Counted from the first letter of the stretch, positions 30,753 through 47,234 are shown. The stretch: DNA of 64,000 nt from Dehalococcoidia bacterium (GCA_965263165.1 OZ253584.1:1013785-1077784); one strand, 5' to 3'. The notes: generated from the letters alone by a model not told the origin. A program made the numbers and translations.

Positions 30753-30828
30753 GGGGCTGTAGCTCATCTGGGAGAGCGCCTCAATGGCATTGAGGAGGCA
30801 GAGGGTTCGAGTCCCTCCAGCTCCACCA
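30753..30828 (+). tRNA. tRNA-Ala (anticodon GGC)
   Basis: GGGGCTG acceptor, D arm AGCTCATCTGGGAGAGC, anticodon arm CCTCA-ATGGCAT-TGAGG, T loop GGTTCGAGTCC, 3' CTCCACCA; 76 nt. Confidence 0.97.
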
Positions 30829-30829
30829 C
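30814..30829 (+). repeat. att core in the tRNA-Ala 3' end (left island junction)
   Basis: CCTCCAGCTCCACCAC, identical to 51523-51538. Confidence 0.85.
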
Positions 30830-30985
30830 CCACCACTCCGCAGCCGTCCTGTACTGTCCCATATGCCCCCTGTTTTGTAGCTGTGAGACGCTGATTGGCG
30901 CCGTATCGCTCCGCATGTATCCCCCCGGTTCCCGCATCAAGTGTGGTAATATTCGTGGGAATCTATCACCACGGAGGGGGTTCCC

Positions 30986-32134
30986 ATGGCGCTGTCAGCG
31001 ACGCGGGCCAAGGCCCTCAAAGACCCTGGCCGATACTCGGATGGCGGAGGCTTGCACCTCTACATCAGCAAGGCGGGACGGAAGTCCTGGGTCCAGCGCA
31101 TCACCATCGATGGACGCCGCCGCGACATCGGCCTCGGCGGATTTCCGTCTGTCAGTCTGGCGCAAGCCCGCGAGAAGGCGGCGGACAACCGGGCCGCCAT
31201 TGCGGAGGGCCGCGATCCTCTGTCGGAAAAGCGCTCGCCTGCGATGCCGACATTCAGGGAAGCCGTCCGCGCCGTCCATGCGGCGAACAAACCCCGTTGG
31301 CGCAACGGCAAACACGTCGCAAGCTGGATGCAGACCCTGGAGCGTCACGCCATGCCGACGCTGGGCAACACGCCCCTGGGCCGGATAGACGGCGGCGCTG
31401 TGCTGCAGGTACTCACCCCGATATGGACGACCCGTCCCGAGACAGCCCGTCGGGTGCGTCAACGGATGAGGACCGTCTTTCGCTGGGCCATGGCGCATGG
31501 CTTCATGGACGCCAACCCGGCGGGAGAAGCCATCGACGGCGCGTTGCCCCGGATGCCGAAGGTGAAAACACACCTCAGAGCGCTGCCCTATCAGGAAGCC
31601 GGGGCGGCGCTGGAAACCGTCGAATCGTCCCAAGCCTCGGTTTCCGCCAAGCTGTGCTTCCGGTTCCTGGTGCTCACGGCGGCCCGCTCCGGCGAGGCGA
31701 GGGGCGCCGCCTGGGACGAGATCGATGTGCAGGGCCAGGAATGGCGGATATCGTCCCAGCGGATGAAAGCAGGCATGGAGCATCGCGTGCCCCTGAGCCG
31801 ACAGGCGTTGGATCTCCTTCGCGAGGCATCCGCGTTGCGTGATGACACGGGTCTGGTGTTCCCGTCGCCGCTGAAGCCGGGTTCGCCGATGTCCGACATG
31901 ACGCTGACGAAGGTGCTCCGGTCGGTAGGCTTGGCGGAGCGAGCGACCGGCCACGGGTTTCGCAGCAGCTTCAAGAACTGGACGCTGGAGCAAACGGATA
32001 CGCCGTGGGCGGTCTCGGAGGCGGCGCTTGCCCACCTCCTGGGCAATGCGACCGAACAGGCCTACGCCAGGTCCGACCTCTTCGAGCGACGCCGCGCCCT
32101 GATGCAGCTGTGGGCGGACTACCTGACCGGCTAA
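30986..32134 (+). CDS. Tyrosine recombinase/integrase (P4-like, with arm-binding domain)
   Basis: YSDGGGLHL...GRRRDIGLGGFPSVSLAQAR arm domain; catalytic R (AARSGE), HGFR, H (LAH) and Y (EQAYAR) all present. Confidence 0.96.
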   Translation: MALSATRAKALKDPGRYSDGGGLHLYISKAGRKSWVQRITIDGRRRDIGLGGFPSVSLAQAREKAADNRAAIAEGRDPLSEKRSPAMPTFREAVRAVHAANKPRWRNGKHVASWMQTLERHAMPTLGNTPLGRIDGGAVLQVLTPIWTTRPETARRVRQRMRTVFRWAMAHGFMDANPAGEAIDGALPRMPKVKTHLRALPYQEAGAALETVESSQASVSAKLCFRFLVLTAARSGEARGAAWDEIDVQGQEWRISSQRMKAGMEHRVPLSRQALDLLREASALRDDTGLVFPSPLKPGSPMSDMTLTKVLRSVGLAERATGHGFRSSFKNWTLEQTDTPWAVSEAALAHLLGNATEQAYARSDLFERRRALMQLWADYLTG

Positions 32135-32477: not shown

Positions 32478-33029
32478 CTACCCCCCAGCCCTAGCTGTGT
32501 CGCTGGGGCTGCCGCTCCTCTTTCGCTTGGCCGCTTTGGGCTTGGGCGGGTACAGCTTGCGCTGACGGCGATAGTGGCGCGCTACGGCCTCCCGGACGTT
32601 GGCGCGGCGATTGTCCGCTGCACACTCCGGCTTGCACGTCTTCACGTTGGGCCACCGCTTGATGCGCTTGGGGTCGATCTTGTTGTCGCAGATCCGACAC
32701 AGGCGGTTGAGAAGGTTCGCCTTCTTCCTGGCCTCTTCCGCCCTCTCTCGCTTGCGGCGCTCCTCCCACTGGACCTTATGGTCCCACCGACAGTAGTTCC
32801 CGAAGAGGCTGTTGACGGTGTCGTTGTAGGTGCTGATGACCGCCCCTCGCTCATACGCGAGCTTCATCCAGGTCGGCATCTTCTGACCACACGCCTTGCA
32901 ACGCTTGTCCATGCGCACGTACTGGTTCCAGCACCGGCCGCTGTGCACCCTCAGAGCGACCTCCATCGCTTGTCCTGGACCATCTTTGTGACACACTCGG
33001 CAGTAGAAATTGTTGGTGGCTGCTGGCAT
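32478..33029 (-). CDS. Basic multi-Cys protein with a C-terminal DksA/TraR-like C4 zinc finger
   Basis: CRVC, CKAC, then CRICDNKIDPKRIKRWPNVKTCKPEC; RBS GGGAGG; Arg/Lys-rich tail. Confidence 0.6.
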   Translation of the reverse strand: MPAATNNFYCRVCHKDGPGQAMEVALRVHSGRCWNQYVRMDKRCKACGQKMPTWMKLAYERGAVISTYNDTVNSLFGNYCRWDHKVQWEERRKRERAEEARKKANLLNRLCRICDNKIDPKRIKRWPNVKTCKPECAADNRRANVREAVARHYRRQRKLYPPKPKAAKRKRSGSPSDTARAGG

Positions 33030-33365
33030 GGCGCGATGTCCTCCCTTGCCTAAGCCTATGTCGTGCCTATTTGTATCATCACCATCACCCATCCACGGCG
33101 CAACTGCCTAATACCAGTATCATCATCATCATCATACCTATTCGGCGGGGCCGGCGCACCCTTTCTACGTAGTGGTAGTACTAATACGAAAGCTGCGAGA
33201 CCCCCCATTAACCCCGCATATTATATAAGAGGGAATCCAAGTTAGCAGCGAAACCATCTCTACATCGACCACGCGGGCGAGCTCCGGTATCATGGGGTGA
33301 CTCCGGCTGGGCATCACGGGGTGCACCCCCACGATCTCCGGCTCTCCACCCCTGGGGTGGCCACC

Positions 33366-33755
33366 ATGCCGAACACCGTTGAGGCTCAGAGAAAGAGGCG
33401 ACTACAACGACGGCGCTGTGGCGGGTGCGGGGGACAGGCTGAGAAGATGCGGCCGTGGGGCGCCATCGAGATTCCGATCTGTGCCGGCTGTGATGCGCTC
33501 CTGCGGACCAGGGCGGATGATGGTGGCCACCAAGTCGTCGCCGTCGCTGCAGGACCTCAGCTCCTCGGTGGTGGTGGCCAGCTCGCACCGGCCGCCGTCC
33601 TCGAGGACGTCTAGGAGCACGTCGAGGCGACGGGCGACGTTGATGCCCTTGGGGAGCCCCCGACCGCGCCGGCACTGACGTCCGAGGACTTGGAGCGCCG
33701 CCGCGAGGACCCGGAGTACGACAACTGGTTGCGGCCCAGGGTCTCTGAGGCTTGA
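33366..33755 (+). pseudogene. Small CxxC-CxxC protein with an in-frame TAG at 33612-33614
   Basis: MPNTVEAQRKRRLQRRRCGGCGG...ICAGCDALL...VLEDV*EHVEATGD...DPEYDNWLRPRVSEA*. Confidence 0.35.
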
Positions 33756-34176
33756 GGACGTCGCCGGCGACGTGGTAGGCCCTGAGCGGCCGCCGCAGGC
33801 CGTGGCCAAGCCCCTCCACGCCTAGCGAGCCCCCGCGGGCCCTCGACCATGCCCTTCATAGCGCCACGTGGAGCCCGTCTTTGAGGTCTGGCCATACTGA
33901 GGGTCGGGGAAGATGAAACGGGCGACCCTGGCCAGCGCCCCCGCAGTCAGAGTAGGCTCTGGCCAACCCCGCGACCGGCGCTGAGGCCCTACCCCACGTC
34001 GCCGGCCCGCGCGAACTGAGGCCCTGGACGGCCGAGCGAAGGCGCCGCCGATTACTGCCTCGGCCTCAGTTAGGTCTCCCTGCCAGCGCCGCCTTCATGG
34101 CCAGGGTGGCCTTGCCGCTGCCGTACTCCCCGATGATGAGCGGCTGGTCCCACATCGACCCTCCCCCCAACCCCCT

Positions 34177-35460
34177 TGTAAAGACCGGAGACATAGTTTA
34201 CGGGTGTTCGGGGACATGATTTACACATCGGGGAGTCGCCTGACTTCCAGGTTCGGCCCGCGTAAGTCCACCTCTGCAATGGGGTGAGTCATGAACCAGA
34301 CTCCCCATACTCCGTCTGATGCTGTTGGCCGCAGGGCGACCGGGCATCCCCGCAGCGCTCGCCCCACCTTGAACTCACGGCCCTTGAAGCTCACCCACCC
34401 TTCCGCCATCACCTTCCGGACCAGGTCTCCCTCTCCGTATTCGATCGGCGGGAGGGTCTCAGGGAAGCTCCGCGGGCTCGGCGCATAACGACTGACCGGC
34501 GTCGCTAGGTCCAGCGCCTGATGGGGACGCTCCGTGTTGTACACGCCGCGCCACCGGTCGAACGCCTCCTGGCACGACAGGAGGTCGGCGAAATGCCTGC
34601 CCTGCAGCACCTCCGCCTTCAGTGTCCGGTGGAAGCGCTCCCCCTTGCCTTGCGTTTGCGGGTGATACGGACGCCCGTGGCTCACCCGGACGCCGAGACG
34701 CATGAGCCAGACGGTCAGCGGCGTACGTGGGTGCTCTGCGTCGTTGCCCCACGGGGAGCCGTTGTCCATGAGCATCCGCTCAGGCAGGCCGTAGACGCGG
34801 AAGATAGCGCTCAGGCGTTCCTGCACCGTCTCGGTGCGCTCGTTGGCGCATGCCTGCAGGCCCAAGGCGAAGCGGGAGTGATCGTCCAGGACGGTCAAGG
34901 GGTGACACCGGCCGGCCCCGGTGGGGAAGTGGCCCTTGAAGTCCATCTGCCAAAGGTCGTTGGGCTGGGCGTGCTCGAACCGTTGCCAGTGGTGTGGGGC
35001 CCGCTCTCCTGTGGCGAGCCGGTTGTTCCGGCGCAGGATGGCCGTGATGGTGCTGGGGCTGGGCAAATAGCCGTAACCGCTGTTGTGCAAGACCCTCCGT
35101 ATCGTGCGGCCTCCCCAGGTGGGGTGCTCCTCGCGTACCCTTAGGACAGCCAGCTCCAACTCGACCGGCGTCTGGTTCGGTGAGGGGTGCGGGCGGCGGG
35201 AGCGCTTGGCGAGGCCGGCTTCCCCCTCCTGCGCGTAGCGGTCGAGCAGTTGATAGGCGGTCGGGGGCGAGACCCCGTAGCGCCGGCACAGCTCCCGGAC
35301 GTTTGCTCCCTCTCGCAGCGCGAGTGCGACGAACTCATGCTTCAGGGACATCGCTGAGGACTCCTTCCAGGGTATGGCGCACCTCCTGCCGACCGGTTGG
35401 CGGACACAAGGTGTAAATCATGTCCCCGAACAGGTGTATAGGATGTCCCCGGTCTATACA
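34177..35460 (-). mobile_element. IS481-family insertion sequence, intact, 1284 bp
   Basis: TGT...ACA ends; IRs TGTAAAGACCGGAGACAT and TGTATAGACCGGGGACAT; exact inner 21-bp IR (34206-34226 and 35411-35431); 6-bp target duplication CCCCCT (34171-34176, 35461-35466). Confidence 0.93.
34221..35351 (-). CDS. IS481-family transposase
   Basis: N-terminal HTH (ELCRRYGVS), WQMDFKGHF, LDDHSR, MDNG, GKGERFHRTLK, YNTERPHQAL. Confidence 0.95.
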   Translation of the reverse strand: MSLKHEFVALALREGANVRELCRRYGVSPPTAYQLLDRYAQEGEAGLAKRSRRPHPSPNQTPVELELAVLRVREEHPTWGGRTIRRVLHNSGYGYLPSPSTITAILRRNNRLATGERAPHHWQRFEHAQPNDLWQMDFKGHFPTGAGRCHPLTVLDDHSRFALGLQACANERTETVQERLSAIFRVYGLPERMLMDNGSPWGNDAEHPRTPLTVWLMRLGVRVSHGRPYHPQTQGKGERFHRTLKAEVLQGRHFADLLSCQEAFDRWRGVYNTERPHQALDLATPVSRYAPSPRSFPETLPPIEYGEGDLVRKVMAEGWVSFKGREFKVGRALRGCPVALRPTASDGVWGVWFMTHPIAEVDLRGPNLEVRRLPDV

Positions 35461-35524
35461 CCCCCTGTAAGGGGATGGTTTGGCCGGCTATTTCCGATTC
35501 CCTCTTATTCCGATTCCCTCTTAT

Positions 35525-37253
35525 CCCACATTTCCCATATCAACCCTGCATGGCGTGCCGTAATCAGCAACAGAACTACCGATGTAGCCGGATAGCAGAG
35601 CACAGTGGTTATCATGAGTGCTAGACTGGTCGTGTTCGACTACTTTAGCTCTTGATAACGTACCCACTCTGGAGGCACCCAATGGGTGAAAGCACAAACC
35701 CCCGCACCACGCTCCGTTTCGACCGCCGTATACGGTTGGAGTTCACGGCGCTACCATCACCTCGGACGCCGGGCTGCTGGCCTGCCGCGAGTTGGATGAT
35801 GCACTGGGACTGACGGAGACGGCGGATGAATGTCTGCAGGAGAGTCGGGGCGGTCGTAACGTGCAGCACTGATTGGTGGGTCTTCTCAGGCAGTCGGTGT
35901 ACAGTCGTCTGGCAGGCTACGAGGATACCAACGATGCTGAACGGTTGGCCGACGATCCGACGATGCGGATAGTCGTTGGAGACCGAGGCATAGACAGACC
36001 AGCGGCCAGCACCAACACCATGAGCCGGTTCGAGACCGAGGTGCTCACCCAAGACGGCAACGTGGAGGGGTTGGGCCGACTGAACGCTAAGTCGGTGGAT
36101 GGAGCTATGTCCCGCACGCCGCACCGGCGGGTGATCTTGGACATGGACAGTTCGGAGAGTCCGGTACATGGAGAACAGGAGGGAGCATCGTACAACGGTC
36201 ACTTTGGGAGCACGTGCTATCACCCTTTGTTCGTGTTCAACCAGTTCGGGGACTGCGAGGGGGCGATGCTCCGTGCGGGGAACGTACATAGCGCGCACAG
36301 GTGGCGTGATGTATTGGATCCGATCCTGTCCCGCTACGGGGCGACAGGAGTGCGACGGTACTTTCGCGCCGACGCCGCATTCGCTATATGAGTACCTGGA
36401 GGAGCGGCGTGTCTTCTACGCCATACGGCTGCCGAGCAACAAAGTGCTACAATACGAGATCGCTCCACTGCTGATACGACCTGTGGGGAGGCCGCCGAAG
36501 CGTCCAGTGATCCTATACGACGACTTTTGGTATCGTGCCGGGAGTTGAGACCGCGCTCGACGTGTGGTGGCCAAGGTGGAGTGGCATAGGGGAGAGCTGT
36601 TCCCTCGGGTGGGCTTCATCGTCACGAACATGACGGCTGGCCCCGAAGGAGTGGTGCGATTCTACAATGGTCGCGGGACGGCCGAGCAGTGGATCAAAGA
36701 GGGGAAGTACGCGCTGAACTGGACTCGGCTGTCGTGCCATCGGTTCGTGGCCAACCGGGTGAGACTGTCTCTGTTCGTCTTGGCGTACAACCTTGGGAAC
36801 TTCCTTCGCTGATTATGCCTGCCCAAGGCGGTCAGGCACTGGTCGCTGCGGAGCGTGCAGGTCAAGCTGATCAAGATGGGAGGCCGTTTGGTGCGACACT
36901 CCCGGCGATTGATCTTTCAGTTGTCCGAGGTGTCGGTTCCTCAACAGTTGTTCCAGGGAGTGTCGGATCGCATCGGCCAGTTATCGCCGGCGCCAAGTTG
37001 AGGGAGGGCACAACCACGATCTTGCCAAGAGGAGAGCGCTCCAGGGAGTCGGCTTGTCTTCAATGCGCTTTCACCCCACTGGCAGGGGACACGAAGACGA
37101 TGAAGACGGACAAGAAGCATGGTTCACGGCGAGAATCGCATCCCTTATCGGATAGATCGGAGATTGAGTGGCCTTGCAGGACCTGACTATGATGCTACCA
37201 TCTCGTTTGGGCTGCCCCTTGAGCCTGAAGACTCCCAATATGGGGAATCCCGG
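35525..37253 (+). mobile_element. IS1380-family element, decayed
   Basis: Imperfect 16-bp IRs CCCACATTTCCCATAT (35525-35540) and CCGGGATTCCCCATAT (37238-37253, reverse complement); ~1.7 kb; no clear target duplication. Confidence 0.75.
35682..37001 (+). pseudogene. IS1380 transposase pseudogene
   Basis: ITSDAGLLA, RLAGYEDTNDA, ILDMDS, RADAAF, YNGRGTAEQWIKEGK spread over three frames; frameshifts near 35745 and 36385; in-frame TGA near 36547. Confidence 0.9.
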
Positions 37254-37294
37254 TTTACACTCCCAGCCGACATCAATCTCGAGGGAGATGAAGA

Positions 37295-37660
37295 GTGCGA
37301 GTAGCGACGTTAATTTTAGGGCTCTTCGCCTCGCTTGGCGTATTCGCACAGTCTTGCGCTGTAGGGTTCACTAGCTCTATTGGAGAATCTTTTGGCGACT
37401 AGGAGATGACGGCTTCCGCAGAAAGTCTATCTGCCGGTGCGGGCAGCGGCTACCTCGCTGGCATACTTGGACTGATTGCGTCTGGAGTAGCTTTTCAGCG
37501 ACCTCGTGCTGGGGCCGTCCTGTTTGGTGCCGCTGCTGCTATTGCAATTTTCTCTGGCGTAGGGTCGGCTTTCGGAGACCTAGTCGCCTGGGGTTTTCTG
37601 TTCGCTATTTGTTCTCTGCTTAGCTTCCTAAGCAAGCATCGAAGTACGCCCACACCCTGA
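37295..37660 (+). pseudogene. Small multi-TM membrane protein with an in-frame TAG at 37400-37402
   Basis: From GTG: MRVATLILGLFASLGVFAQSCAVG...GESFGD*EMTASAES...GYLAGILGLIASG...; hydrophobic on both sides of the stop. Confidence 0.5.
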
Positions 37661-37675
37661 GAGTACGTGGAAATA

Positions 37676-38353
37676 ATGCGATATCAAATAAAAACGTCTA
37701 CTGCCTTCCTGTCCCTCGCTATACTTGGCCTGATTGTGGCGGCTTGCAGCACTCCTGATCCTACAGCCGGCCCAACCTCTACGCCTACTCCCGCTCCCAC
37801 GTGGACGCCTACTCCTACCCCTACTCCGGCTCCCACGTGGACGCCCACTCCTGGCCCAACCGCTACTCCCATTCCGACTGCTACTCCCACCTCTATTCCG
37901 TTGGGACGCCAGGACAATCCGATACCTCTAGGCGAACCTGCTCTTGTGGAATTCGAGAGCATCCTAAGTGACAGCAACCTATGGCGAATTACCGTCAACA
38001 GCATCAATCCGGATGCATATGAAGCTCTACGGCCCCCATACATGCGAAATGCTCTGCCTACTGGTTATCAAGCAGTTCTCGTGGATATTACCGCACTAAA
38101 TGCAGGATCTACGCCCGCAAGACTCGGGGCATCTAGTTTCAAGTCGATAGGCGATGTTGGGTTGAGAGTCTATGGCGGCTATGACGCTGCGTGTGGCTTC
38201 GGCATTGAAGGACTCTTGCCTGACGCTGAGATCTTCCCCGGTGGGCAGATTACCGGTGGAGCTTGCTGGATAGTCCGCTCAGATGATGTCGCCTCGTTGA
38301 AAATGTTCGCTGAGGCAGGGGGCCGGGTTTGGTTCTCTTTGCATCGAGAGTGA
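37676..38353 (+). CDS. Lipoprotein with Pro/Thr stalk and a globular (possibly DUF4352-like) head
   Basis: Lipobox [16 protein letters not shown] repeats, head ...FPGGQITGGACWIV. Confidence 0.75.
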   Translation: MRYQIKTSTAFLSLAILGLIVAACSTPDPTAGPTSTPTPAPTWTPTPTPTPAPTWTPTPGPTATPIPTATPTSIPLGRQDNPIPLGEPALVEFESILSDSNLWRITVNSINPDAYEALRPPYMRNALPTGYQAVLVDITALNAGSTPARLGASSFKSIGDVGLRVYGGYDAACGFGIEGLLPDAEIFPGGQITGGACWIVRSDDVASLKMFAEAGGRVWFSLHRE

Positions 38354-38434
38354 CGAACCGAATTGAGAACTCACAGCGTCGACGGGCAATAAGCTCTCGG
38401 AGGCCAAGCGTCTTGCAGAAGGTGCGAAAAGTTA

Positions 38435-39805
38435 ATGCGGACTCAAGCAAAAATATCCATCGCCTTTCTTTTTGTCGCCATCATCGGCTCGATTGTGGCG
38501 GCCTGCAGCGCCCCTGAGCCTACGCCCGATCCGATCCACGCGCCTACTCCGGCTCCAACCTGGACGCCTACTCCCACTCCGACTCCGGTTCCAACCTGGA
38601 CGCCTACGCCTACGCCCACTCCCGACCCTACCGCTACTCCTCTGCCTGCGCCAACTGCGACGCCTACGCCTACGCCTACTCCGACCGCTATGCCTACGCC
38701 TACGCCGACTCCAACCCCGACCGCTACGCCTACTCCTACTCCTACTCCTACTCCAACCCCGACTCCAACCCCGACCGCTACGCCTACGCCCACTCCCGAC
38801 CCGAGCGGCCGCTGGCAAATTGGAACGCATGAGGACGTACTGACCGGAGGCCGCTTGCCTGCAGCCAACCTCAGCCCTGTTGGCGCTAGCGACGGTGGAA
38901 CTACACTGACAGTGCGCTGTACGAGTGGGAACGAGTTGGCTGTATCCATCAATTGGGAAGAATTTGCCTTTGTAATAGGCACTTACAGCGATCCCAGAAA
39001 AGCTCCTGTCCGATATTCCCTGGACGGGACTGAACATTTAGGCTGGTGGTCAATTGTAGACTACGATAAGTCTCTGGTTCCGCCAGAAGATTTGCAAACA
39101 GTGTTAACTCAATTGTTAGACGCCACAGTCGCGGGGTTTCAAGTCTACGACTATAACGACTGGGACTCCGCGGCCAATCCAGAGGCATGGGCCAGGTTCG
39201 AGGTTTCAGGGCTGAAATGGGTGATGAGCCAGTTGCCGTGCTCAGTGTCCCCAAAGTGGGTTACTCTGTCTGCCGCCAAGGCAGCGTTGACCAGAGTTGA
39301 GGTCCACGACGCTGGGGGGTCTGGCGTGGTGGTAAAGGAAGGCGACGGTCGCTCTCAGATAATCACTGCTTGGCACGTAGTTGAATCCTACTGTACCGAC
39401 GTTGGACAGTGTGTCGGCGTCAGCGTTGTACATGACGGTAAAAGGCATCATGCTCGATTGCTAAGGCACAACGCGCAAGAGGATATTGCGCTGCTAAGCA
39501 TAGAGGTCGAACTACCGGTAATTCCACTGGCGACTGAAACTCCATCGCTGGAAAGCCCCGTAACAAACATCGGACTACCTGGAGGGGAATATGATTTCCA
39601 ATACAACGAGGGAATCATAGTCGGCTACGATGGTTGCTCGTTCAGTGCCTGTCTGCGAACGAATGCCAAAGCATGGTCCGGCTTCAGCGGCGGGGCGCTC
39701 ATTAATGAAAATGGCGAGCTAGTAGGCGTCATCAGTGAGGGTTGGAGGGGCTCATACTACTCAAACGCAGTGAGTGTGGCTGCGGTCAAGCGTTTGCTGG
39801 AATAA
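38435..39805 (+). CDS. Lipoprotein with long Pro/Thr stalk, a middle domain and a C-terminal trypsin-like serine protease domain
   Basis: Lipobox IVAAC; about 100 aa of PT repeats; triad candidates ITAWHVV (His), DIALL (Asp), GFSGGAL (Ser). Confidence 0.85.
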
Positions 39806-40442
39806 CCGACTCCCCCCTCCAGCGCCCCCCCAGCCAGTCGCGTAGCCCCCTTTACAAAAGCAACTCCGCCCCGCCGTCCTCGCTACGTCGGAGAGGCCCG
39901 CCAGCCAGAGGCCCGGGGCCGACGATGGCAAACGACGTCCGCCACCAGCGCGATGCGGTTGGACGCCGCGGGCGCGCATCGCTCCCACACAACCCCTCCT
40001 GTCGTAGCCCTTGTCCGCGCCGATGGTCTGGGGGGAGACGCACCGGCCAACGACTTGGCCGAGCTTGGCCTGCCGCTCTGCGACGGCTGAAGCCGGGCGG
40101 CCTCTCCGTAGCGCGCGTGTAGTGCGAACGTCTGTTTGGGGTTACAATGGGGGAAAGCGCGTTGACATCAATCGGGCCACCAGCAGCAACGGGATCGGGT
40201 TCAATCTTGGGTGCGCTCTTCCTGGTTTGGTAATCAATCCAGATCGCCCCGAGATGATCTCTCAGGAGCATTCAGGCCTCGCGGCAGTGGTTCCTATCGA
40301 TGCAATGCAGGAGGCTACCTCTCGCGGTATTGCGGCCAGCAACTATGTGCAGGACGCGACGCCTCAGCGTCTGAGGTCAGATACAGAGTGGGATGGGGCC
40401 CATGGCCACTGTCACCAAGGCCGCCACCGCGGGAAATCCGCC

Positions 40443-41066
40443 ATTATATAAGAGGGAATTGGAAATAGACCGCCAAACCATTCCCTTATAGGGGGTTGGG
40501 GGGGTAGTCGATGTGAGGCCAACGGATGCCGCCACTCCTCTATGACCCGCCCGAGCTGCACGAGGACGCCGCTAGGGTAGACCCGCCCATGTCCGCATGG
40601 CCCGGCGCCATGCGGACGCCACAGGATGTGATGGCGGCGTGCGGCGACTGCTGAGACTGGTTCCGGTATGGGCCCCGCTACGAGGCGTATCTCCGGTGCT
40701 GGAATGAGTGGGCGGGCGCGCCCGCCTCGCCCGCCTCCCGTTCATACCAGGGATGGTGGTGGTGGCACCTTTGAAACCCTGCATATTATATAAGAGGGAA
40801 TGGGAAATAGACCGCCAAACCATCCCCTTATAGGGGGATGGGGGTTGGTCGATGTGAGGCCAACGGATGCCGCCACTCCTCTATGACCCGCCCGAGCTGC
40901 ACGAGGACGCCGCTAGGGTAGACCCGCCCATGTCCGCATGGCCCGGCGCCATGCGGACGCCACAGGATGTGTGATGGCGGCGTGCGGTACCCCCGCGACC
41001 GGTTCCGGTGTGGGCGCCGCTACGAGGCGTATCTCCGGTGCTGGAATGAGTGGGCGGGCGCGCCCG
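40443..41066 (+). repeat. Tandem direct duplication, period 342 bp (40443-40724 and 40785-41066)
   Basis: Both copies run ATTATATAAGAGGGAAT...GTCGATGTGAGGCCAACGGATGCCGCC...GGAATGAGTGGGCGGGCGCGCCCG. Each contains an 11-bp hairpin GTCCGCATGGC/GCCATGCGGAC. Confidence 0.92.
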
Positions 41067-41344
41067 ATGTGAGCGGGCGCGCCACTACCCAAAGAGCCGC
41101 CCCGGCAACCGCCAACGCTTTCCTGACCAAGGCTCTCCCTCCCTTTTACCCTCTACCGCGCTCCACTCCCCGGCCGCCATCGGATCAGCCGGCGAAGTAG
41201 ATCCTGACGACCGCTATCGCCTCTTCCTTGCTCATGACGCCATTGAAGTAGTCGACGGCCGCCGCAACGGCCTCGTCCCGGTCGATGGCCTTGGACGGCA
41301 CTGGAATTAGACTGGGCAACCACTTATGTCTTACGCTACTGACT

Positions 41345-42487
41345 ATGCAGATGAGCCAGATCGAGCTAGTTAGCACGGGATCACGCCTAGCCGAAGTCGT
41401 CGATCATATATCGAGGACGCCACGAGTCGCAGTCGACATCGAGTCGAACGGGTTCTTCAGATATCACGAGCGCGTCTGCCTCGTGCAACTCGCATCAGCC
41501 GAGACCGCCTTCCTCGTCGATCCGCTGGCGATAGACGATCTCCGACCGCTTGGTGACCTTCTCGGTGACCGATCGGTGGAGAAGGTCTTCCATGCCGCCG
41601 ACTACGACCTCCGTAGCCTTGACAGGGACTGGGGATTCCGGGTAAACAATTTGTTCGACACCGGTATTGCCGCCGCCTTCGTTGGCTCCGAGCATCTGGG
41701 CTTGCAGTCTGTAGTGGAGGAGCACGCGGGGGTGAAGTTGGCCAAGCTCCGGAGACTCCAGCGGTCAGACTGGACGATGCGGCCTTTAACTCCTGAAGCG
41801 CTGAAGTACGCAGCAGACGACGTTCTACACCTTCTGCAGGTCCGCGAAGCACTATCGGCACGGCTAAAGGAGCTATCGCGGTTCGCATGGGCGAAAGAGG
41901 AGTTCGCGCGTCTGGAGAACGTGCGGCATACGCCTCCCGACCGCGAGCTGGCCTTCCTTTCGATCACGGGTAGCCATGACCTGGATGGCAGGAGTTTGGC
42001 TGTCCTGCGCTCCCTGTTCCAATTTCGCGAACAAGAGGCCATCCGTCTCGATCGTCCGTTCTTCAAGGTGATATCGGATTCTGCACTGGTCAAGCTGTCG
42101 TCCGAGCCCGTGGCCGATCTCTCGGCCGTCAAAGGGCTGGGTCGGTTCGGACGTCCGCCTGCCGACAGAGGCCTGAAAGCCGCAATCGAAGAAGGGCTCA
42201 GGTCTCGCCCCGTGACTTGCCCGAAGCGGACGCGGAGTGAAAAGACATGGAGTCCCGCTGAGCGAGAGAGGGTCAGGACTCGCTTTCGGAGTCTCAAGAC
42301 GTGGCGCAGCGAGTTAGGCAGAGAACTGCGATTGGACCCAAGTCTATTGTGGCCGGCTGTGAGCCTGGAGCGCCTGGCTCGGTGGCCCTGTAGCCTGCAC
42401 TCCGAAGTCGTTAGTCCTAAGGTCCGGAGCTGGCAGGAGCGTGAGTTTGCCGGGGCGCTGAGGAGAGTTCTCGCAACTCTGAGTTGA
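41345..42487 (+). CDS. rnd: Ribonuclease D-like 3'-5' exonuclease with HRDC domain (start approximate)
   Basis: DEDDy motifs VAVDIES, FHAADYD, FDT, YAADD; C-terminal region REQEAIRLDRPFFKVISD. Confidence 0.88.
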   Translation: MQMSQIELVSTGSRLAEVVDHISRTPRVAVDIESNGFFRYHERVCLVQLASAETAFLVDPLAIDDLRPLGDLLGDRSVEKVFHAADYDLRSLDRDWGFRVNNLFDTGIAAAFVGSEHLGLQSVVEEHAGVKLAKLRRLQRSDWTMRPLTPEALKYAADDVLHLLQVREALSARLKELSRFAWAKEEFARLENVRHTPPDRELAFLSITGSHDLDGRSLAVLRSLFQFREQEAIRLDRPFFKVISDSALVKLSSEPVADLSAVKGLGRFGRPPADRGLKAAIEEGLRSRPVTCPKRTRSEKTWSPAERERVRTRFRSLKTWRSELGRELRLDPSLLWPAVSLERLARWPCSLHSEVVSPKVRSWQEREFAGALRRVLATLS

Positions 42488-42579: not shown

Positions 42580-45500
42580 TCAGGCGGCTACCCAGCCCTC
42601 CGACAGAACCTCGGCCTGCTCAAGGACGGTTATTGTCGCCTTCTCCTGCTTGTCGGGCGGGTAACCGTGCTTGCGCAGGATGCGTTTGACCAGCGCCCGT
42701 AGCTTGGCGCGGACGTTCTCCCGCAGCGTCCAGTCGATAGTGACGTTGTTCCGCACGGTGTCGACCAGCTCGCGGGCTATGGCGTGAAGGGTCTCGTCGC
42801 CCAGCACCTGCACCGCGCTGTCGTTGGTTTCCAGCGCGTCGTAGAAGGCCAACTCGTCCTCGCTCAAGCCCAGATGCTCACCGCGGGCGTTGGCCTCCCG
42901 CATGTCCTTCGCAAGCTGTATCAGCTCCTCGATGACCTGCGCCGCCTCGATCGCCCGGTTTTGGTAGCGCCGCAGCGTTTGCTCCAGCATCTCGGCGAAG
43001 GAGCGGGCCTGCACCACGTTCTTGCGGCGCCGGGTGTGCAACTCCCCCTTGAGCAGCTTCTGCAACAGCTCCACGGCGAGGTTGCGCTGAGGCATTCCCT
43101 GCACCTCGGCCAGGAACTCGTCGGAGAGCACCGAGATGTCCGGCTTGTCCAGTCCCGCGGCGGCGAAGATGTCCATCACGCCTTCGGACGCCACCGCCCG
43201 GGAGATTATCTGCCGCACGGCTAGGTCCAGATCCTCCTCGGCGCGGGCCTCTCCCGTTGCCCGCTTCGACAGCGCCGCCCTCACCGTCTGGAAGAATCCC
43301 ACGTCGTCCCGAATACGAAACGTCTCCGGGTGCGGCACGGCCAGGGCGAAGGCTTGCGACAGCTCGCGGACGGCGTTCAGGCAGCGTTCCTTGCCGTCCT
43401 CTTGGGCCAGGACGTGCTCTTGAGCGGGCGGCAGAAGTCCCAACCGTTCCTGTGCACCACCCGCAGTCCACTTGGACCTATCGAATCCGTGAAACAGGGC
43501 GCAGCACACCTCGTACTTCTCCAACATCACCGCAACCGCTTCCTCTTGGTCCAAGGCGGTGCGACCGGTGCCGCCGCTCTCGGTGTACGTGGCCAGGGCT
43601 TGCTTGAGGTCCTGGGCCAGCCCCAAGTAGTCCACCACCAAGCCGCCCGGCTTGTCCTTGAAGACCCGATTGACGCGGGCGATAGCCTGCATCAGCCCGT
43701 GTCCCCGCATCGGCTTGTCCACGTACATGGTGTGCAGGCTGGGCGCGTCGAACCCCGTGAGCCACATGTCCCGCACAAGCACAATCTGGAGTGGGTCGGC
43801 GGGATCGCGGAAGCGGTTCGCCAACGCCTCCCGACGAGCCTTGTTCCTGATGTGCGGCTGCCAGTCCAGTGGATCGGAGGCTGAGCCGGTCATCACCACC
43901 TTGACGCTTCCCTGGTCGTCATCGTCGTTGCGCCAGCCGGGGCGCAGGCGCACCAACTCCCGGTAGAGGTCGATGCAGATGCGCCGGCTCATGCAAACGA
44001 CCATCGCCTTGCCGTCCAGCGCCTCCAGCCGTTGCCCGAAGTGGGTCACGATGTCCTCGGCAATCTGCTTCACCCGCTTCTCCGCGCCGACGACGGCCTC
44101 CAACTGAGCCCATTTGGTCTTGAGCCTCTCCCTTCGCTCCACCTCCTCACCCTCGGTGGCCTCCTCGAACTCCGGGTCTATGTTCGGCCTCTCCTGCTCG
44201 TCCAGGGCCAGCTTGGCGAGGCGGCTCTCGTAGTAGATGGGCACCGTAGCCCCGTCCTCGACGGAACGTTGGATGTCGTAGATGCTGATGTAGTCTCCAA
44301 ACACGGCCCGCGTGTTGGCGTCCTGCAGCTCGATGGGCGTTCCCGTGAAGCCGACAAACGAGGCGTTGGGCAGGGCGTCCCGCATGTGACGGGCGTAGCC
44401 GTCGATGAAGTCGTACTGGCTGCGGTGGGCTTCGTCAGCGATGACCACGATGTTCCGCCGCCCCGAGAGGGTGGGGTGGGAATCGCCCTTCTCTTCGGGG
44501 AAGAACTTCTGGATGGTTGTGAAGACTATTCCCCCGGCGTTCACCGACAACTTGCTGCGCAGGTCGGCCCGACTCTCCGCCTGGGCTGGCGGCTGGCGCA
44601 GGAGGTCCTGGCAACGGGAGAACGTGCCGAAGAGCTGGTCGTCCAGGTCGTTGCGGTCCGTGAGGACCACGACGGTCGGGTTCTCCATGGCCGGCTCGCG
44701 GACAATGACCCCGGCGTAGAACGCCATGGTCAGGCTCTTGCCTGATCCTTGGGTATGCCACACCACCCCGATGCGTCGGTCGCCAAGCTCTCCGCCGGGT
44801 TTGTGGCTCGCCTCGTACCGCCCGCCCTCCTCGGCGATTCGGACTTCGGTGCGTTGCAGCTTCGCCGCCCGCAGGGTCTCATCCACCGCAACCTTGACGG
44901 CGTGGAACTGGTGATACCCGGACATCTTCTTGACCAGAGCGCCGCTGCCGTCGTCGTCGAAGACGATGAAGTCGCGGACCAGGGCGAGGAAGCGGCCCGG
45001 CTCAAAGACGCCCTCCAGCATCACCTGCAACTCGGTCATGCGAGTGTCAGCCAGCGTCTCCCCGGTTACGGTGCGCCAGGGCTTGAACCACTCCCGACCG
45101 GAGGTCAGCGCGCCGATACGGGCCTCGGTCCCGTCGGAGACCAGGAGCGCCTCGTTCATGGAGAACAGGGTTGGCAGCTCCGCCTTGTAGGTCTGGAGTT
45201 GCTGCCAGGCCGTCCAGATGGTGGCGTCCTCGTCCACAGGGTTCTTCAGCTCGATGACGCCTAGGGGCAGCCCGTTGACGAACAGCACGACGTCCGGCCT
45301 GCGGGTATTCCTATTCTCGGTGACGGTGAACTGGTTGACGGCCAGCCAGTCGTTGTTGGCGGGGTCGTCGAAGTCGATGACCTTCACCTGCGCTCCACGG
45401 ATGCGCCCCTCGCCGTCCCGGTGCTCCACTGTCACACCATCTACGAGCATCCGGTGGAAGGCGCGGTTGCGAGCTTCAAGCGTTGAACCTTCGGAGCGGG

Positions 45501-45723
45501 TGAGCTTGCGGAAGGCGTCGTCTAGCGCCGACGAAGGCAGGCTGGGGTTCAACTCGGCGAGGGAGTCCCGCAGCCGACGCTCCAGCACCACCTGCCCATA
45601 GTCGGAGCGCTCGGCGCCGGGCGTGTCCGGCGCAATGTCCGGGCCGTGCGCCACCTGCCAGCCGAGGCCCTCTAACCAGGCCAGGGCAGCCTGTTCGACG
45701 TCGGCTTCGGTGAGGGTGGTCAT
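42580..45723 (-). CDS. hsdR: Type I restriction endonuclease R subunit
   Basis: [20 protein letters not shown] nuclease motif, [40 protein letters not shown]. Confidence 0.98.
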
Positions 45724-46052
45724 GGGGATACTCGTCGTTCGCCGCGGCGCTCATTGTGCATTACGTTTTCACGACAAGCGCTGTTGTGCATCATGACATG
45801 GCATGCTGTGATCTTCAAATCGCGTTGTCTTCGGTTGGTGGGACGCAACCTACTCGCTGCCTTCCGCCAGATGGAGGAGCCTGAGAAACACCAGGAGTAC
45901 TGACCGCCTCCCTCGGGCTTCACTCAGTACTGCCAACATATGTCTGTCGCACAGGACCCTTACGATCATGTAGGGTGGAACAGTCAACCGGCCTATCCGT
46001 CAGATTCTATCCAAGAAAGGGTGGATTGACTCGAATTCAGCGTAAGCCCTCG

Positions 46053-47201
46053 TTAGGTGTTTTCGTCCATATCATCCCCTTGCAGTTGAATCCAGACAGC
46101 TCCTCCGGGCGAACGAATCATTCGGCTATCGCCACTAATCCAGCCAAATGTATCAATCCCATTTTCATGAATAATGCCTACTTTCAAGTCTCCTAGTTGA
46201 AGCTCTCTTAATGAGTAACATCGTCTTTGGCCAAGGCGTGTATTGCAAACTGCGTGGCCCCAAGTCACTTTTTGAGGAATGTGGTGACCATCACTGTACA
46301 CCAACGGCTCCAAGTGAAAGAGGTTGACAATCGTTGATCTGGTTGTTCCCTCTATCTGCAGAGGGGCATTCTCGAGAGAACTCTCATCCTCAAAGGAAAC
46401 CATGTCATGTAGCTCATTGTACCGAACAAATCTCAGGCACAATGGACAGCAGGTCATTCCTCGTCGAACGGCACTAAGGTGTTCAAGTGCCTCCTCAGAT
46501 CCGAGGTCCTCTGACCCTAGTATCACGTGCAACTGCTCTGCTTGGTTCGTCGTGTACGGACTTCCCGATGTCTTTATGATTAGCCATGCAAGCACGCATT
46601 TGCATAAATAGTTGTCATTCATGTCGGCATACTCTGGCGCAAATACACCTTGTGGTGGACCTTCTTCTCGTTGTGGCTTAGCTCCCGTTCTTGGAAGTCG
46701 TAGCACGTAATGTCCATCATCGACTACTCCTTCACCACGGGCTGCAACCTCGCTGCCGTCCTTCAGAAGTCGTCGCGCATACCAATCCGGCATTGGAGGG
46801 AGTGATTCAAAACTCTCATGGCTTCTATACAACACAAAAGCGCTGTCTCCAACTCTGACTTCACTAGGCTGCAAGAATTCGTTTCTTGGTTCAAACTGTC
46901 CTATGAAGTATTGTTCAGGAAGCAAACGAATGATATACCCGTCGGCGAATCGCGATAGGTCCAAACCCGTGACTCGTTCGTAAGGGATAATCACTTGATT
47001 CGATCTGAGGACATGATTCTGATAGGCACCCTTCCTTCCGCCACGAGGAGTTGCGAAGCCTGCCTTGGAGAGTTTAGCCTTGTCCTTGTCGTCAAAGAAA
47101 TCCCATGCTTCCGTAGGATAAGGGTTGTGCCCACCGGCATGACCTGCGTTACGCCGACAGCCTCCCTGCCCACATAGAGTCATCTTTGAAGCGCTACCCA
47201 T
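46053..47201 (-). CDS. BstXI-like (HNH-type) Type II restriction endonuclease
   Basis: KAGFATPRGGRKGAYQNHV, GHYVLRL, EGPPQGVFAPEYA, LAWLIIKT, TCCPLC, NLFHLEPLVY, WGHAVCNTRLGQR; collinear with R.BstXI as remembered (not searched); RBS GGAGAGG; lower GC than its flanks. Confidence 0.8.
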   Translation of the reverse strand: MGSASKMTLCGQGGCRRNAGHAGGHNPYPTEAWDFFDDKDKAKLSKAGFATPRGGRKGAYQNHVLRSNQVIIPYERVTGLDLSRFADGYIIRLLPEQYFIGQFEPRNEFLQPSEVRVGDSAFVLYRSHESFESLPPMPDWYARRLLKDGSEVAARGEGVVDDGHYVLRLPRTGAKPQREEGPPQGVFAPEYADMNDNYLCKCVLAWLIIKTSGSPYTTNQAEQLHVILGSEDLGSEEALEHLSAVRRGMTCCPLCLRFVRYNELHDMVSFEDESSLENAPLQIEGTTRSTIVNLFHLEPLVYSDGHHIPQKVTWGHAVCNTRLGQRRCYSLRELQLGDLKVGIIHENGIDTFGWISGDSRMIRSPGGAVWIQLQGDDMDENT

Positions 47202-47234
47202 AGGCTACCTCTCCGCGAATGTTACCGGTTCGGC

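What the first reader, a model, noticed from the sequence alone, without database searches (positions are those of the whole stretch)
33216..40856. Recurrent ~70-bp non-coding motif in both orientations across the island
Seen: consensus ATTATATAAGAGGGAAT.GGAAATAG.CCGCCAAACCAT.CCCTTA.AGGGGG.TGGGG...GTCGATGTG at 40443 (+) and 40785 (+). An inverted copy appears once IS481 is removed (34151-34176 joined to 35467-35508). A partial copy lies at 33216-33257 (GCATATTATATAAGAGGGAAT...AAACCAT). It is an AT-rich block followed by C/G tracts in GC-rich DNA, not seen outside the island in this window. Copies bound small gene modules: the Zn-finger ORFs, the lipoprotein block and the duplicated mini-ORF. 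Its reverse strand contains TATAAT but no good -35. Inference: a module-boundary recombination site, a replication/transfer origin element, or a portable promoter/RBS cassette used to build the island.
Basis: partly seen in the sequence, partly recalled or inferred. Interest (0 to 1): 0.68.

Follow-up and report, generated by a model that had tools for sequence, protein, structure and literature searches.

The report
Repeated gene-start region of a split NTPase gene
The recurring AT-rich motif is the upstream control and start region of an uncharacterised NTPase gene carried by a small mobile island of Dehalococcoidia bacteria; it recurs because that region and the first part of the gene were copied in tandem and then scrambled, so it is a fairly ordinary product of gene duplication rather than a new kind of recombination site.

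Summary
There are two full + copies (40441-40520, 40783-40861), one - copy split by an IS481-family element with a CCCCCT target duplication, and one 45-nt partial copy (33210-33260). A profile finds nothing else in the 64 kb.

The motif is not free-standing. It heads a 317-359-bp unit made of motif, Shine-Dalgarno, ATG, a ~70-aa "mini-ORF" and a hypervariable trinucleotide tract. In ten related loci (nine metagenome contigs, one MAG locus) this unit forms tandem arrays of 2-5 motif copies. Each array ends at a P-loop NTPase gene (MWDQPLIIGEYGSGKT).

Relatives explain it. In L056, L057, L058 and ~400-aa family members, the mini-ORF is the N-terminal domain of that NTPase in one ORF. In L057 and L058 the tract and the 28-nt box AAGTCCCGCATATTATATAAGAGGGAAT lie in intergenic DNA just upstream of AGGAG-N7-ATG. 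The box is identical between lineages whose coding DNA is 72% identical.

So the motif is the gene's native 5' control region. This lineage split the gene and amplified [control region + N-domain]. Promoter or operator activity is inferred, not shown: -10-like TATTAT is invariant in 29 of 32 scored copies, but the -35 is poor. A recombination site, an origin and a MITE are not supported.

The parts
33210..33260 (+). Copy A: partial copy. It has the conserved box AACCCCGCATATTATATAAGAGGGAAT plus ~25 nt of the 'L057-type' leader, and lies in the divergent intergenic region between the Zn-finger protein gene (32478-33029, -) and a Zn-ribbon ORF (33366-33614, +).
   Evidence: (D6)
35461..35524 (-). 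Copy B, 5' part (box and leader). It includes a 16-bp tandem duplication of ATAAGAGGGAATCGGA (TTCCGATTCCCTCTTA as read on the + strand) at 35492-35523. The ATTATAT part of the box is replaced.
   Evidence: (I1, I2, D17)
34146..34176 (-). Copy B, 3' part (G-run spacer, GTCG, ATG). 34171-34176 is one copy of the IS target duplication CCCCCT.
   Evidence: (I4)
34177..35460 (-). IS481-family insertion sequence that splits copy B. Its transposase is at 34221-35351 and it has 50-nt terminal inverted repeats.
   Evidence: (I3)
34066..34155 (-). Remnant of the NTPase gene started by copy B: MWDQPLIIGEYGSGKATLAMKAALAGRPN*. It is truncated after 29 codons. The same truncation is found in L043, L046, L047 and L048.
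40441..40520 (+). Copy C: full motif. The DNA upstream of 40443 is unrelated to other copies, so this is a rearrangement junction at the AT box.
40526..40752 (+). N-domain ('mini-ORF') segment of unit 1. The ATG is at 40526 and is preceded by ATG TGA (40511-40516) and SD GAGG. An in-frame TGA lies at 40652-40654. The segment is homologous to the N-terminal domain of full-length NTPase genes.
40753..40782 (+). (TGG)n trinucleotide tract (40753-40765) followed by CACCTTTGAAACCCTGC. The tract is hypervariable between copies and loci. The scan's -35-like GTGGCA lies at 40762-40767.
40783..40861 (+). Copy D: full motif, the head of the second tandem unit (342-bp period).
   Evidence: (D3-D5)
40868..41066 (+). 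N-domain segment of unit 2. It is frameshifted (+2 at GTGTGATGG) and homology to the unit ends at 41066.
   Evidence: (D3, D4)

Best explanation
The motif is the native 5' control and translation-start region of an island-borne gene for a two-domain protein. That protein has a ~70-aa N-domain, a short basic linker, a P-loop NTPase and a C-terminal HTH. From 5' to 3' the motif holds four parts: a 25-28-nt AT-rich box (CCCGCATATTATATAAGAGGGAAT); a ~45-nt leader that can fold into a hairpin holding the G-rich Shine-Dalgarno in its 3' arm; GGTCG; and an ATG. In intact relatives there is one copy, in intergenic DNA just upstream of the gene. In the window's lineage the gene underwent fission. The segment [tract + box + leader + N-domain coding part] became a 317-359-bp unit that is tandemly amplified to 2-5 motif copies. 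The last control region is joined directly to the NTPase domain (ATG TGG GAC CAG). Each piece therefore keeps its own start region, which is why the motif recurs. In the window the locus is decaying. The NTPase is cut to 29 codons. The array is broken into two inverted parts on either side of ~5 kb of cargo (lipoproteins, a peptidase, an IS1380-type pseudogene). IS481 sits in one copy, and both N-domain units are broken. Shown here: the anatomy, the homology, the ancestral intergenic position, and conservation above the coding background. Inferred: that the box is a promoter (-10) and/or operator, and that the leader hairpin modulates translation.
For: (1) 34 long copies in the window and ten related loci were aligned. 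Eleven are followed by the NTPase start. The other 23 are followed by ATG-TGA, an SD and the N-domain ATG (one variant has ATG CGA, one ATG TGG and one ATA TGA in place of ATG TGA; in two the N-domain start reads ATA). (2) The arrays have periods of 317-359 bp, always in the orientation of the NTPase gene and directly upstream of it. (3) The continuous L056 ORF aligns by BLASTP to mini-ORF+NTPase with E 6e-42 across both domains, with a 39-aa gap exactly where the tract and motif lie. (4) L057 has an intact ORF listed at 472 aa (about 470 aa from the ATG). L058 has the same gene with a frameshift. Both carry the tract, the box, a leader and AGGAG-N7-ATG in intergenic DNA. nhmmer gives E 2e-19 and 7e-18. 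(5) An exhaustive profile search found 151 relatives. Most full-length ones (~350-450 aa) start the NTPase domain at about residue 55-120. Three read in full (P0037, P0040, P0030) all have the fused N-domain. (6) The 28-nt box is identical between L057 and window-lineage copies, while N-domain and NTPase coding DNA are 72.5% and 72.4% identical. (7) The 3' end GGTCGATG matches codons 2-4 of the L058 gene (ATG CGG TCG ATG CTG TTC GAC). (8) In L048 a motif plus N-domain head replaces the 5' region of another gene at a microhomology.
Against: No transcript data could be obtained. No run could be identified as RNA: the RNA query returned the same runs, of unknown kind, kept only as contigs. By the sigma-70 consensus only the -10-like TATTAT is conserved. 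The best -35 is 2/6 in 20 of 32 copies and 4/6 in 6, and there is no TG extension. The host tRNA-Ala promoter, by contrast, looks like TTGCGG-18-TGgTAGAAT. The leader hairpin has no compensatory changes within the main lineage and only modest z-scores. One reading frame through tract and motif is free of stops in all 27 tracts, so some copies may also be translated as tails of the upstream ORF. Many related contigs are low-coverage assemblies (names ending _1x to _4x), so their frames are unreliable.
Confidence: 0.7

Rival explanations
1. The motif is protein-coding. It would encode a conserved C-terminal tail or linker ((V/M/T/A)n-APLKPRILYKRExE[LI]DRQTIPLQGVGGWSM) of the mini-ORF protein, or a linker inserted between the N-domain and the NTPase. 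It would then recur only because the gene segment is duplicated, and would have no regulatory role.
For: The frame through tract and motif has 0 stops in 27 hypervariable tracts, against 6 and 81 in the other frames. Variants look conservative: TTA/CTA/ATA, and CCT TTG AAA versus CCT CTT AAG. Gene callers produced many read-through ORFs (P0003-P0016). In L043 the frame is continuous from the N-domain through the motif into the NTPase.
Against: In L057 and L058 the same box lies in intergenic DNA upstream of a canonical SD and ATG. The distance from the N-domain frame to the motif frame is 0, 2 or 1 mod 3 in 9, 11 and 5 copies. The three frame classes go with distinct tract and junction types. 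In the mod-2 and mod-1 classes the N-domain ORF stops at TGA or TAA just before the box. The G-run spacer before the ATG varies from 18 to 23 nt and is not held to multiples of 3. TAG replaces CAG in 7 of the 34 long copies. There is no third-position excess of variation. The codons would be rare AT-rich ones in a 64% GC genome.
Confidence: 0.1
2. The motif is a site-specific recombination site, or a hot spot that the island's recombinase uses to shuffle, invert or capture gene modules.
For: In copies with unrelated upstream DNA (window C and A, L048_12433) the homology breaks within ~15 nt of the AT box; window B loses the box at the same place, though traces of unit homology continue upstream. 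In the window two array halves lie back-to-back around ~5 kb of cargo. In L049 two arrays face each other across ~9 kb of cargo. B carries a 16-bp duplication at the box.
Against: The arrays occur with P4-type tyrosine integrases (window, L043, L048, L052) and with large serine recombinases (L053, L054). They lie kilobases from the integrase and the tRNA junction. Homology between copies covers whole 317-359-bp units, as expected of duplication and homologous recombination. The L048 junction is at a microhomology inside the N-domain, not at the motif. No inversion or deletion joint at the motif appears in the source-sample contigs laid on the C/D region, although such contigs drop rare variants. 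Retention of a working start region would produce the same clustering of junctions.
Confidence: 0.07
3. The array is a cis-acting replication, transfer or partition site (iteron, oriT or centromere-like) bound by the adjacent NTPase/HTH protein or by the Zn-finger protein. The AT box would be the unwinding or nicking region.
For: Directly repeated units with an AT-rich box lie in GC-rich DNA next to a P-loop NTPase that has a C-terminal HTH-like segment. There is palindromic DNA: CCATCCCCTTATAGGGGGATGG, and a 7-bp inverted repeat CCTCTTA-N16-TAAGAGG around the box in some variants. The Zn-finger protein has a weak TraR-like C4 signal (E 0.0037, below cut-off).
Against: The period (317-359 bp) is set by a coding segment, not by short iterons. 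Intact relatives have only one copy. No Rep, relaxase or ParB-like protein is recognisable. The palindrome is imperfect in most copies. There are no relatives in the phage, plasmid or viral collections.
Confidence: 0.07
4. The motif is a small dispersed mobile repeat (REP, MITE or Correia-like) that happens to have landed several times in the island.
For: It is short, AT-rich and partly palindromic, and occurs in both orientations. In most related loci its copies are solely attached to one gene family, which could have been mistaken for insertion preference.
Against: There is no copy outside the island in the 64 kb. Among the representative genomes of 185,579 species, exact-pattern scans hit one MAG only, at one locus. 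Two further box copies in that MAG are each attached to a full-length NTPase gene. The metagenome and viral scans gave only one chance hit or none. There are no terminal inverted repeats or target duplications around copies, and the flanks of copies are homologous to one another.
Confidence: 0.02

Closest known systems
Gene fission by tandem duplication and complementary loss, with amplification of the 5' gene segment (general evolutionary mechanism; own knowledge of the comparative-genomics literature)
   Same: A gene that is one ORF in relatives (L056, L057, P0037, P0040) is here two kinds of ORF: the N-domain alone and the NTPase alone. Each is preceded by a copy of the same upstream region. 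Units are head-to-tail, and copy number varies between close relatives (2-5).
   Different: The duplicated unit carries an unusually conserved 28-nt box and a hypervariable trinucleotide tract. The N-domain units are often broken, so it is unclear whether the split state is functional or a stage of decay.
Integron cassette arrays with attC sites (e.g. Vibrio VCRs)
   Same: Arrays of small ORFs are separated by a highly similar ~80-nt element with an imperfect palindrome, inside a mobile region.
   Different: There is no IntI-type integrase. The palindrome is ~30 nt rather than 57-141 nt with R''/L''/L'/R' boxes. The 'cassettes' are paralogous copies of one gene segment, not unrelated ORFs. The element sits upstream of a start codon as a 5' region, and exists as a single copy upstream of the intact gene.
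Promoter-bearing dispersed repeats (Correia/CREE elements of Neisseria, ERIC/REP-type repeats)
   Same: A short conserved AT-rich repeat that can supply expression signals to whatever lies downstream.
   Different: It is not dispersed, has no TIR or TSD, and every copy is linked to one gene family or its remnants.
Repeated, near-identical promoters of mobile elements and phages (e.g. ~23-nt single-subunit RNAP promoters ending ...TATAGGGAGA / ...TATAGAAGAG; resemblance from memory only)
   Same: An invariant ~25-nt box containing TATA followed by AGAGGGA, the same orientation as the genes, and much higher conservation than the coding DNA.
   Different: No phage-type RNA polymerase is encoded in these small elements. 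The resemblance covers only ~10 nt and was not tested.

Membership tests
Tandem gene-segment amplification / gene fission | The repeat unit is homologous to part of a gene that is intact and single-copy in relatives. | tested here: met
   BLASTP of the L056 ORF against mini-ORF+NTPase gives E 6e-42 across both domains. L057 has an intact ORF of about 470 aa. Three family members of 308-416 aa read in full all have the fused N-domain.
Tandem gene-segment amplification / gene fission | Head-to-tail units of constant period, with copy number varying between close relatives. | tested here: met
   Periods of 317-359 bp and 2-5 motif copies per array in ten loci. The window has a 342-bp duplication.
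Bacterial sigma-70 promoter | -35 and -10 hexamers with 16-18-nt spacing, or an extended TG -10. | tested here: inconclusive
   TATTAT is invariant in 29 of 32 scored copies. The best -35 is 2/6 in 20 of 32 copies and 4/6 in 6. There is no TG. The reverse strand has TATAAT in 31 of 33 copies, with a -35 of 2/6 in all 33.
Bacterial sigma-70 promoter | A transcription start a few nt downstream of the -10. | not testable with these tools
   No run could be identified as RNA; the RNA query returned the same runs, of unknown kind, kept only as contigs.
REP / MITE dispersed repeats | Many copies scattered over intergenic regions of the genome. | tested here: not met
   No copy outside the island in the window. 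One MAG among the species representatives, with 5 box copies at 3 loci, all tied to the NTPase gene family.
REP / MITE dispersed repeats | Terminal inverted repeats and a target-site duplication around each copy. | tested here: not met
   The flanks of copies are homologous to one another (the whole unit). Only a 7-bp IR around the AT box in some variants.
Integron attC | An adjacent IntI-type integrase and attI. | tested here: not met
   The integrases are the Arm-DNA-bind_3/Phage_int_M/Phage_integrase type next to a tRNA, or large serine recombinases.
Integron attC | A 57-141-nt imperfect palindrome with RYYYAAC ... GTTRRRY cores that separates unrelated cassettes. | tested here: not met
   The palindrome is ~30 nt. 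GCCAAAC and GTTGGGG match 6/7 each, by eye only. The 'cassettes' are paralogues.
Iteron-type origin | Clusters of short (~17-22-bp) direct repeats next to an initiator gene, plus an AT-rich unwinding element. | tested here: not met
   The period is 317-359 bp. Intact relatives have a single copy. No Rep is recognisable.
Structured RNA family (Rfam) | A match to a curated covariance model, or covariation supporting a fold. | tested here: not met
   Only the tRNA passes Rfam gathering in the window. There are 0 compensatory pairs in 20 copies. z-scores run from +0.1 to -2.6 for the full-motif leaders and +0.8 for copy A.

The most novel reading that the evidence does not exclude
The locus may be a copy-number- and tract-length-variable control module of a new family of Dehalococcoidia mobile elements. 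In this reading the 28-nt box is an operator/promoter read by an element-encoded factor, possibly the HTH end of the NTPase itself. The slippage-prone trinucleotide tract just upstream tunes the box like a contingency locus. The amplified N-domain-only genes make a regulator or antagonist of the NTPase, so that unit number sets the N-domain:NTPase ratio.
Probability: 0.12. Interest if true: 0.55.

Novelty: new member of a known kind. Interest (0 to 1): 0.3.

Why it matters
This turns an apparent 'mystery repeat' into something that can be annotated. The repeat marks the start region of an uncharacterised two-domain NTPase gene, about 150 relatives of which turned up in public protein data with no Pfam, NCBIfam or PHROG family assigned. 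It also documents a clear case of gene fission followed by tandem amplification inside small tRNA-integrating elements of Dehalococcoidia. These organisms are rarely cultured and almost nothing is known about their promoters. The invariant 28-nt box is a concrete candidate promoter or operator to test. For genome annotation the result is a warning: gene callers read through the array and produce dozens of spurious chimeric 'proteins'. It does not reveal a new recombination or replication mechanism.

Tried and rejected
- Exact-pattern scan of species-representative genomes with AAGAGGGAATNGGAAATAG: 42 hits, all chance matches in AT-rich genomes that do not extend.
- Metagenome scan: one chance hit inside a coding sequence.
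- Viral contigs: nothing with the DNA pattern or with the NTPase profile.
- Phage and plasmid collections by blastn: nothing.
- Exact look-up of the window's integrase: not on record.
- Rfam: only the tRNA.
- RNA structure: a conserved-sequence hairpin without covariation.
- Codon-position analysis of variation, to decide coding versus non-coding: uninformative, with no third-position excess in any frame.
- Reading the array as one long ORF with recoded stops (TGA at the conserved Trp codon, TAG where others have CAG): considered and dropped. Both stops would need recoding, the G-run spacer breaks the frame, and the intact relatives give a simpler explanation.
- Pfam, PHROG, NCBIfam and PDB sequence searches for the NTPase, N-domain and Zn-finger protein: only sub-threshold P-loop, AAA, Zot, DnaC-like and TraR-like signals.
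- RNA-seq runs for TSS mapping: no run could be identified as RNA.
- Search for inversion or deletion joints at the motif in the source sample's contigs: none.
- P0033, a 3678-aa repetitive protein high in the profile search, is a low-complexity false positive.
- Literature search: nothing on these elements.

Full report
**Observation**

The motif is real and is not a chance match. The 17-mer ATTATATAAGAGGGAAT occurs exactly three times on the + strand, at 33220, 40443 and 40785. Shuffled sequence gives no matches. A profile built from the long copies finds only the reported sites in the 64-kb window: two full + copies, one minus-strand copy in two pieces, and a 45-nt partial copy.

The element that interrupts the minus copy is IS481-family. 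It has 50-nt terminal inverted repeats (I3), rve and LZ_Tnp_IS481 domains, and a CCCCCT target duplication. Removing it restores a continuous copy. Contigs of the source sample reproduce the junctions around C and D exactly.

The setting is a small island next to tRNA-Ala(GGC) at 30753-30828. It carries a P4-type tyrosine integrase at 30986-32134.

**The motif is part of a larger unit**

The two + copies lie in a 342-bp tandem duplication. Each long copy ends in GTCG ATG.
- In C and D this reads ATG TGA, followed by GAGG, a 7-nt spacer and the ATG of a small ORF (MPPLLYDPPELHEDAARVDPP...).
- In the restored minus copy it reads ATG TGG GAC CAG, the start of MWDQPLIIGEYGSGKATL..., which stops after 29 codons.

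**Relatives**

Exact-pattern scans of 185,579 species-representative genomes found one real locus, L043, in a Dehalococcoidia MAG. The 5'-half pattern alone gave 42 chance hits that do not extend. The metagenome and viral scans gave nothing real.

Protein searches with the Zn-finger protein and with a read-through ORF from L043 recovered nine more metagenome contigs, L046-L054. Across the window and these ten loci, nhmmer finds 33 long intact copies (34 counting the restored window copy B), plus partial ones.
- They form tandem arrays of 2-5 motif copies with periods of 317-359 bp.
- They always face, and lie directly upstream of, the same P-loop NTPase gene.
- The last copy supplies that gene's ATG.
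- Eleven copies are followed by the NTPase start. The other 23 are followed by the start-stop and the small-ORF start (with minor variants at both codons).
- The arrays occur in elements with tyrosine integrases and in elements with large serine recombinases.

L043 sits at tRNA-Ser(TGA) although its integrase gene is ~90% identical at the DNA level to the window's.

**Anatomy of the motif**

- Two near-invariant blocks, GCATATTATATAAGAGGGAA and TAGACCGCCAAACCATCCCCTTA.
- A 6-7-nt hypervariable patch between them.
- A G-run spacer whose length varies from 18 to 23 nt and is not held to multiples of three.
- GTCG and the ATG.
- Upstream of each copy, a hypervariable trinucleotide tract ((TGG)n, (TGA)n, (TAG)n, (TGC)n and others), then GCACCTTTGAAACCC or GCTCCTCTTAAGTCC.

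**Coding or not**

One frame through tract and motif has no stop in 27 tracts, against 6 and 81 in the other two frames. Gene callers produced many read-through ORFs. Five things argue against coding:
- The small-ORF frame is in phase with that frame in only 9 of 25 copies. In 11 and 5 copies it is in the other two phases. The three classes go with distinct tract and junction types, and in the other two classes the ORF stops at TGA or TAA just before the box.
- The spacer before the ATG breaks the frame.
- TAG replaces CAG in 7 of the 34 long copies.
- Variation shows no third-position excess.
- Many contigs are named _1x to _4x, so their frames are unreliable.

**The decisive comparison**

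More distant NTPase homologues lie on contigs L055 and L056. In these the 'small ORF' is the N-terminal domain of the NTPase, in one reading frame, and no motif is detectable. BLASTP of the L056 ORF against small ORF + tail + NTPase gives E 6e-42 over both domains. The alignment has a 39-residue gap exactly at the tract and motif.

A profile scan of the representative genomes found two further loci, L057 and L058, in the same MAG as L043. L057 has an intact ORF of about 470 aa:
MPRMLFDPPELAEYAERVDPP...ACGDKRDWFRFGHRYEAYLRYWNEWADARNRRRDMSVGFAWDQIMIIGEYGAGKTT...
It ends in an HTH-like part. L058 has the same gene with a frameshift.

Directly upstream of both, in intergenic DNA, lie a TGATGA-rich tract, the box CCTCTTAAGTCCCGCATATTATATAAGAGGGAAT (L058 has CTATTAAG at its 5' end), a ~45-nt leader, and AGGAG-N7-ATG. 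nhmmer gives E 2e-19 and 7e-18. The window's partial copy A has this same leader variant.

The 28-nt box is identical between L057 and window-lineage copies, while the N-domain and NTPase coding DNA are 72.5% and 72.4% identical. The motif's 3' end GGTCGATG corresponds to codons 2-4 of the L058 gene.

An exhaustive profile search found 151 relatives. Most full-length ones (~350-450 aa) start the NTPase domain at about residue 55-120. Three read in full (P0037, P0040, P0030) all have the fused N-domain. The fused gene is therefore the norm and the window's state is derived.

**Explanation**

The motif is the native 5' control and start region of this gene. In the window's lineage the gene was split. 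[Control region + N-domain part] became a tandemly amplified unit, and a final control region was joined to the NTPase domain at its conserved Trp-Asp-Gln.

A further transplant of motif plus N-domain head, in front of another gene at a microhomology, is seen in L048.

In the window the locus is decayed and rearranged:
- The NTPase is truncated, as it also is in L043 and L046-L048.
- Both N-domain units are broken.
- The array is separated into two inverted halves by ~5 kb of lower-GC cargo.
- Two insertion sequences are present.

**What remains inferred**

Promoter or operator activity is not shown.
- The -10-like TATTAT is invariant in 29 of 32 scored copies and the reverse strand has TATAAT in 31 of 33, but the -35 is poor in most copies and there is no TG extension. 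The host tRNA promoter, by contrast, looks sigma-70-like.
- The leader can form a hairpin that holds the Shine-Dalgarno in its 3' arm in both leader variants, but support is weak.
- No transcript data were available.

**Rivals**

- A recombinase site is unlikely. The arrays occur with two recombinase classes, whole-unit homology points to duplication, and no alternative joints were seen.
- An origin or centromere reading lacks short iterons and any recognisable initiator, and intact relatives have a single copy.
- A MITE/REP reading fails on distribution and on the absence of terminal repeats.

**Verdict**

This is an ordinary evolutionary product, gene fission plus tandem amplification that carried the gene's start region, in an undescribed family of Dehalococcoidia mobile elements. 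It comes with one concretely testable candidate regulatory box.

Noticed in passing
window 35545-37205: An IS1380-type transposase pseudogene (Pfam DDE_Tnp_1_4, broken by stops) lies next to copy B. In four metagenome runs its sequence has assembler depths of 10^3-10^5, against ~3-30 for the flanking island. Two runs hold a contig that skips 35544->37205, though only 20 nt lie on one side of that joint. This IS family appears extremely abundant in those communities.
   Followed up: partly
window 30753-32134; L043 5275-6669: The integrase genes are ~90% identical at the DNA level, yet the islands sit next to different tRNA genes: tRNA-Ala(GGC) in the window and tRNA-Ser(TGA) in L043. The window also lacks ~2.6 kb (excisionase-like gene, 317-aa gene and others) that L043 has between the Zn-finger protein and the integrase.
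   Followed up: partly
upstream of every motif copy, e.g. window 40753-40765; L049, L050, L054: A hypervariable trinucleotide tract mixing (TGG)n, (TGA)n, (TAG)n, (TAC)n, (TGC)n and (TGT)n. It runs from about 4 to about 17 triplets and differs between adjacent units and between close relatives, as expected of slippage. One frame is always open. Similar (ATG)5 and GGT GAT tracts lie upstream of the Zn-finger protein gene at 33056-33140 (minus strand).
   Followed up: partly
L049 9148-10010 (+) and 19453-20222 (-): Two arrays, each leading into an NTPase gene copy, face each other across ~9 kb of cargo. The cargo encodes a 1741-aa glycosyltransferase/methyltransferase fusion and a PD-(D/E)XK nuclease. 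This inverted duplication could allow the cargo to flip.
   Followed up: no
window 37406-39805: The cargo between the two array halves has lower GC (55-58%). It encodes an 84-aa membrane protein, two lipoproteins with long Pro-Thr repeat linkers that share a 179-nt 5' region, and, in the second lipoprotein, a trypsin-like peptidase domain (Trypsin_2, E 1.7e-21).
   Followed up: partly
window 42580-48572: A type I restriction-modification system (HsdR 42580-45723, HsdS 47235-48572) encloses a low-GC (48%) gene at 46053-47201 with a weak BstXI-endonuclease-like signal. This looks like a defence islet just beyond the RNase D-like gene (41285-42487).
   Followed up: no
window 32478-33029 (-): A 183-aa protein with several CxxC pairs and only two database homologues (both in related islands). 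It has a sub-threshold TraR-type C4 zinc-finger signal (E 0.0037).
   Followed up: partly
window 40652-40654 and the ATG TGA at 40511-40516 / 40853-40858: In-frame TGA codons fall at positions where relatives have sense codons: CGC inside the N-domain, and the conserved Trp codon TGG at the unit junction. Likewise TAG alternates with CAG in the motif. The pattern looks like stop-codon recoding but is better explained by decay.
   Followed up: partly
protein database entries P0003-P0016, P0029: Gene callers translate through the arrays in various frames. This has deposited many chimeric 'proteins' (mini-ORF in a wrong frame + motif + NTPase start) in public collections.
   Followed up: yes
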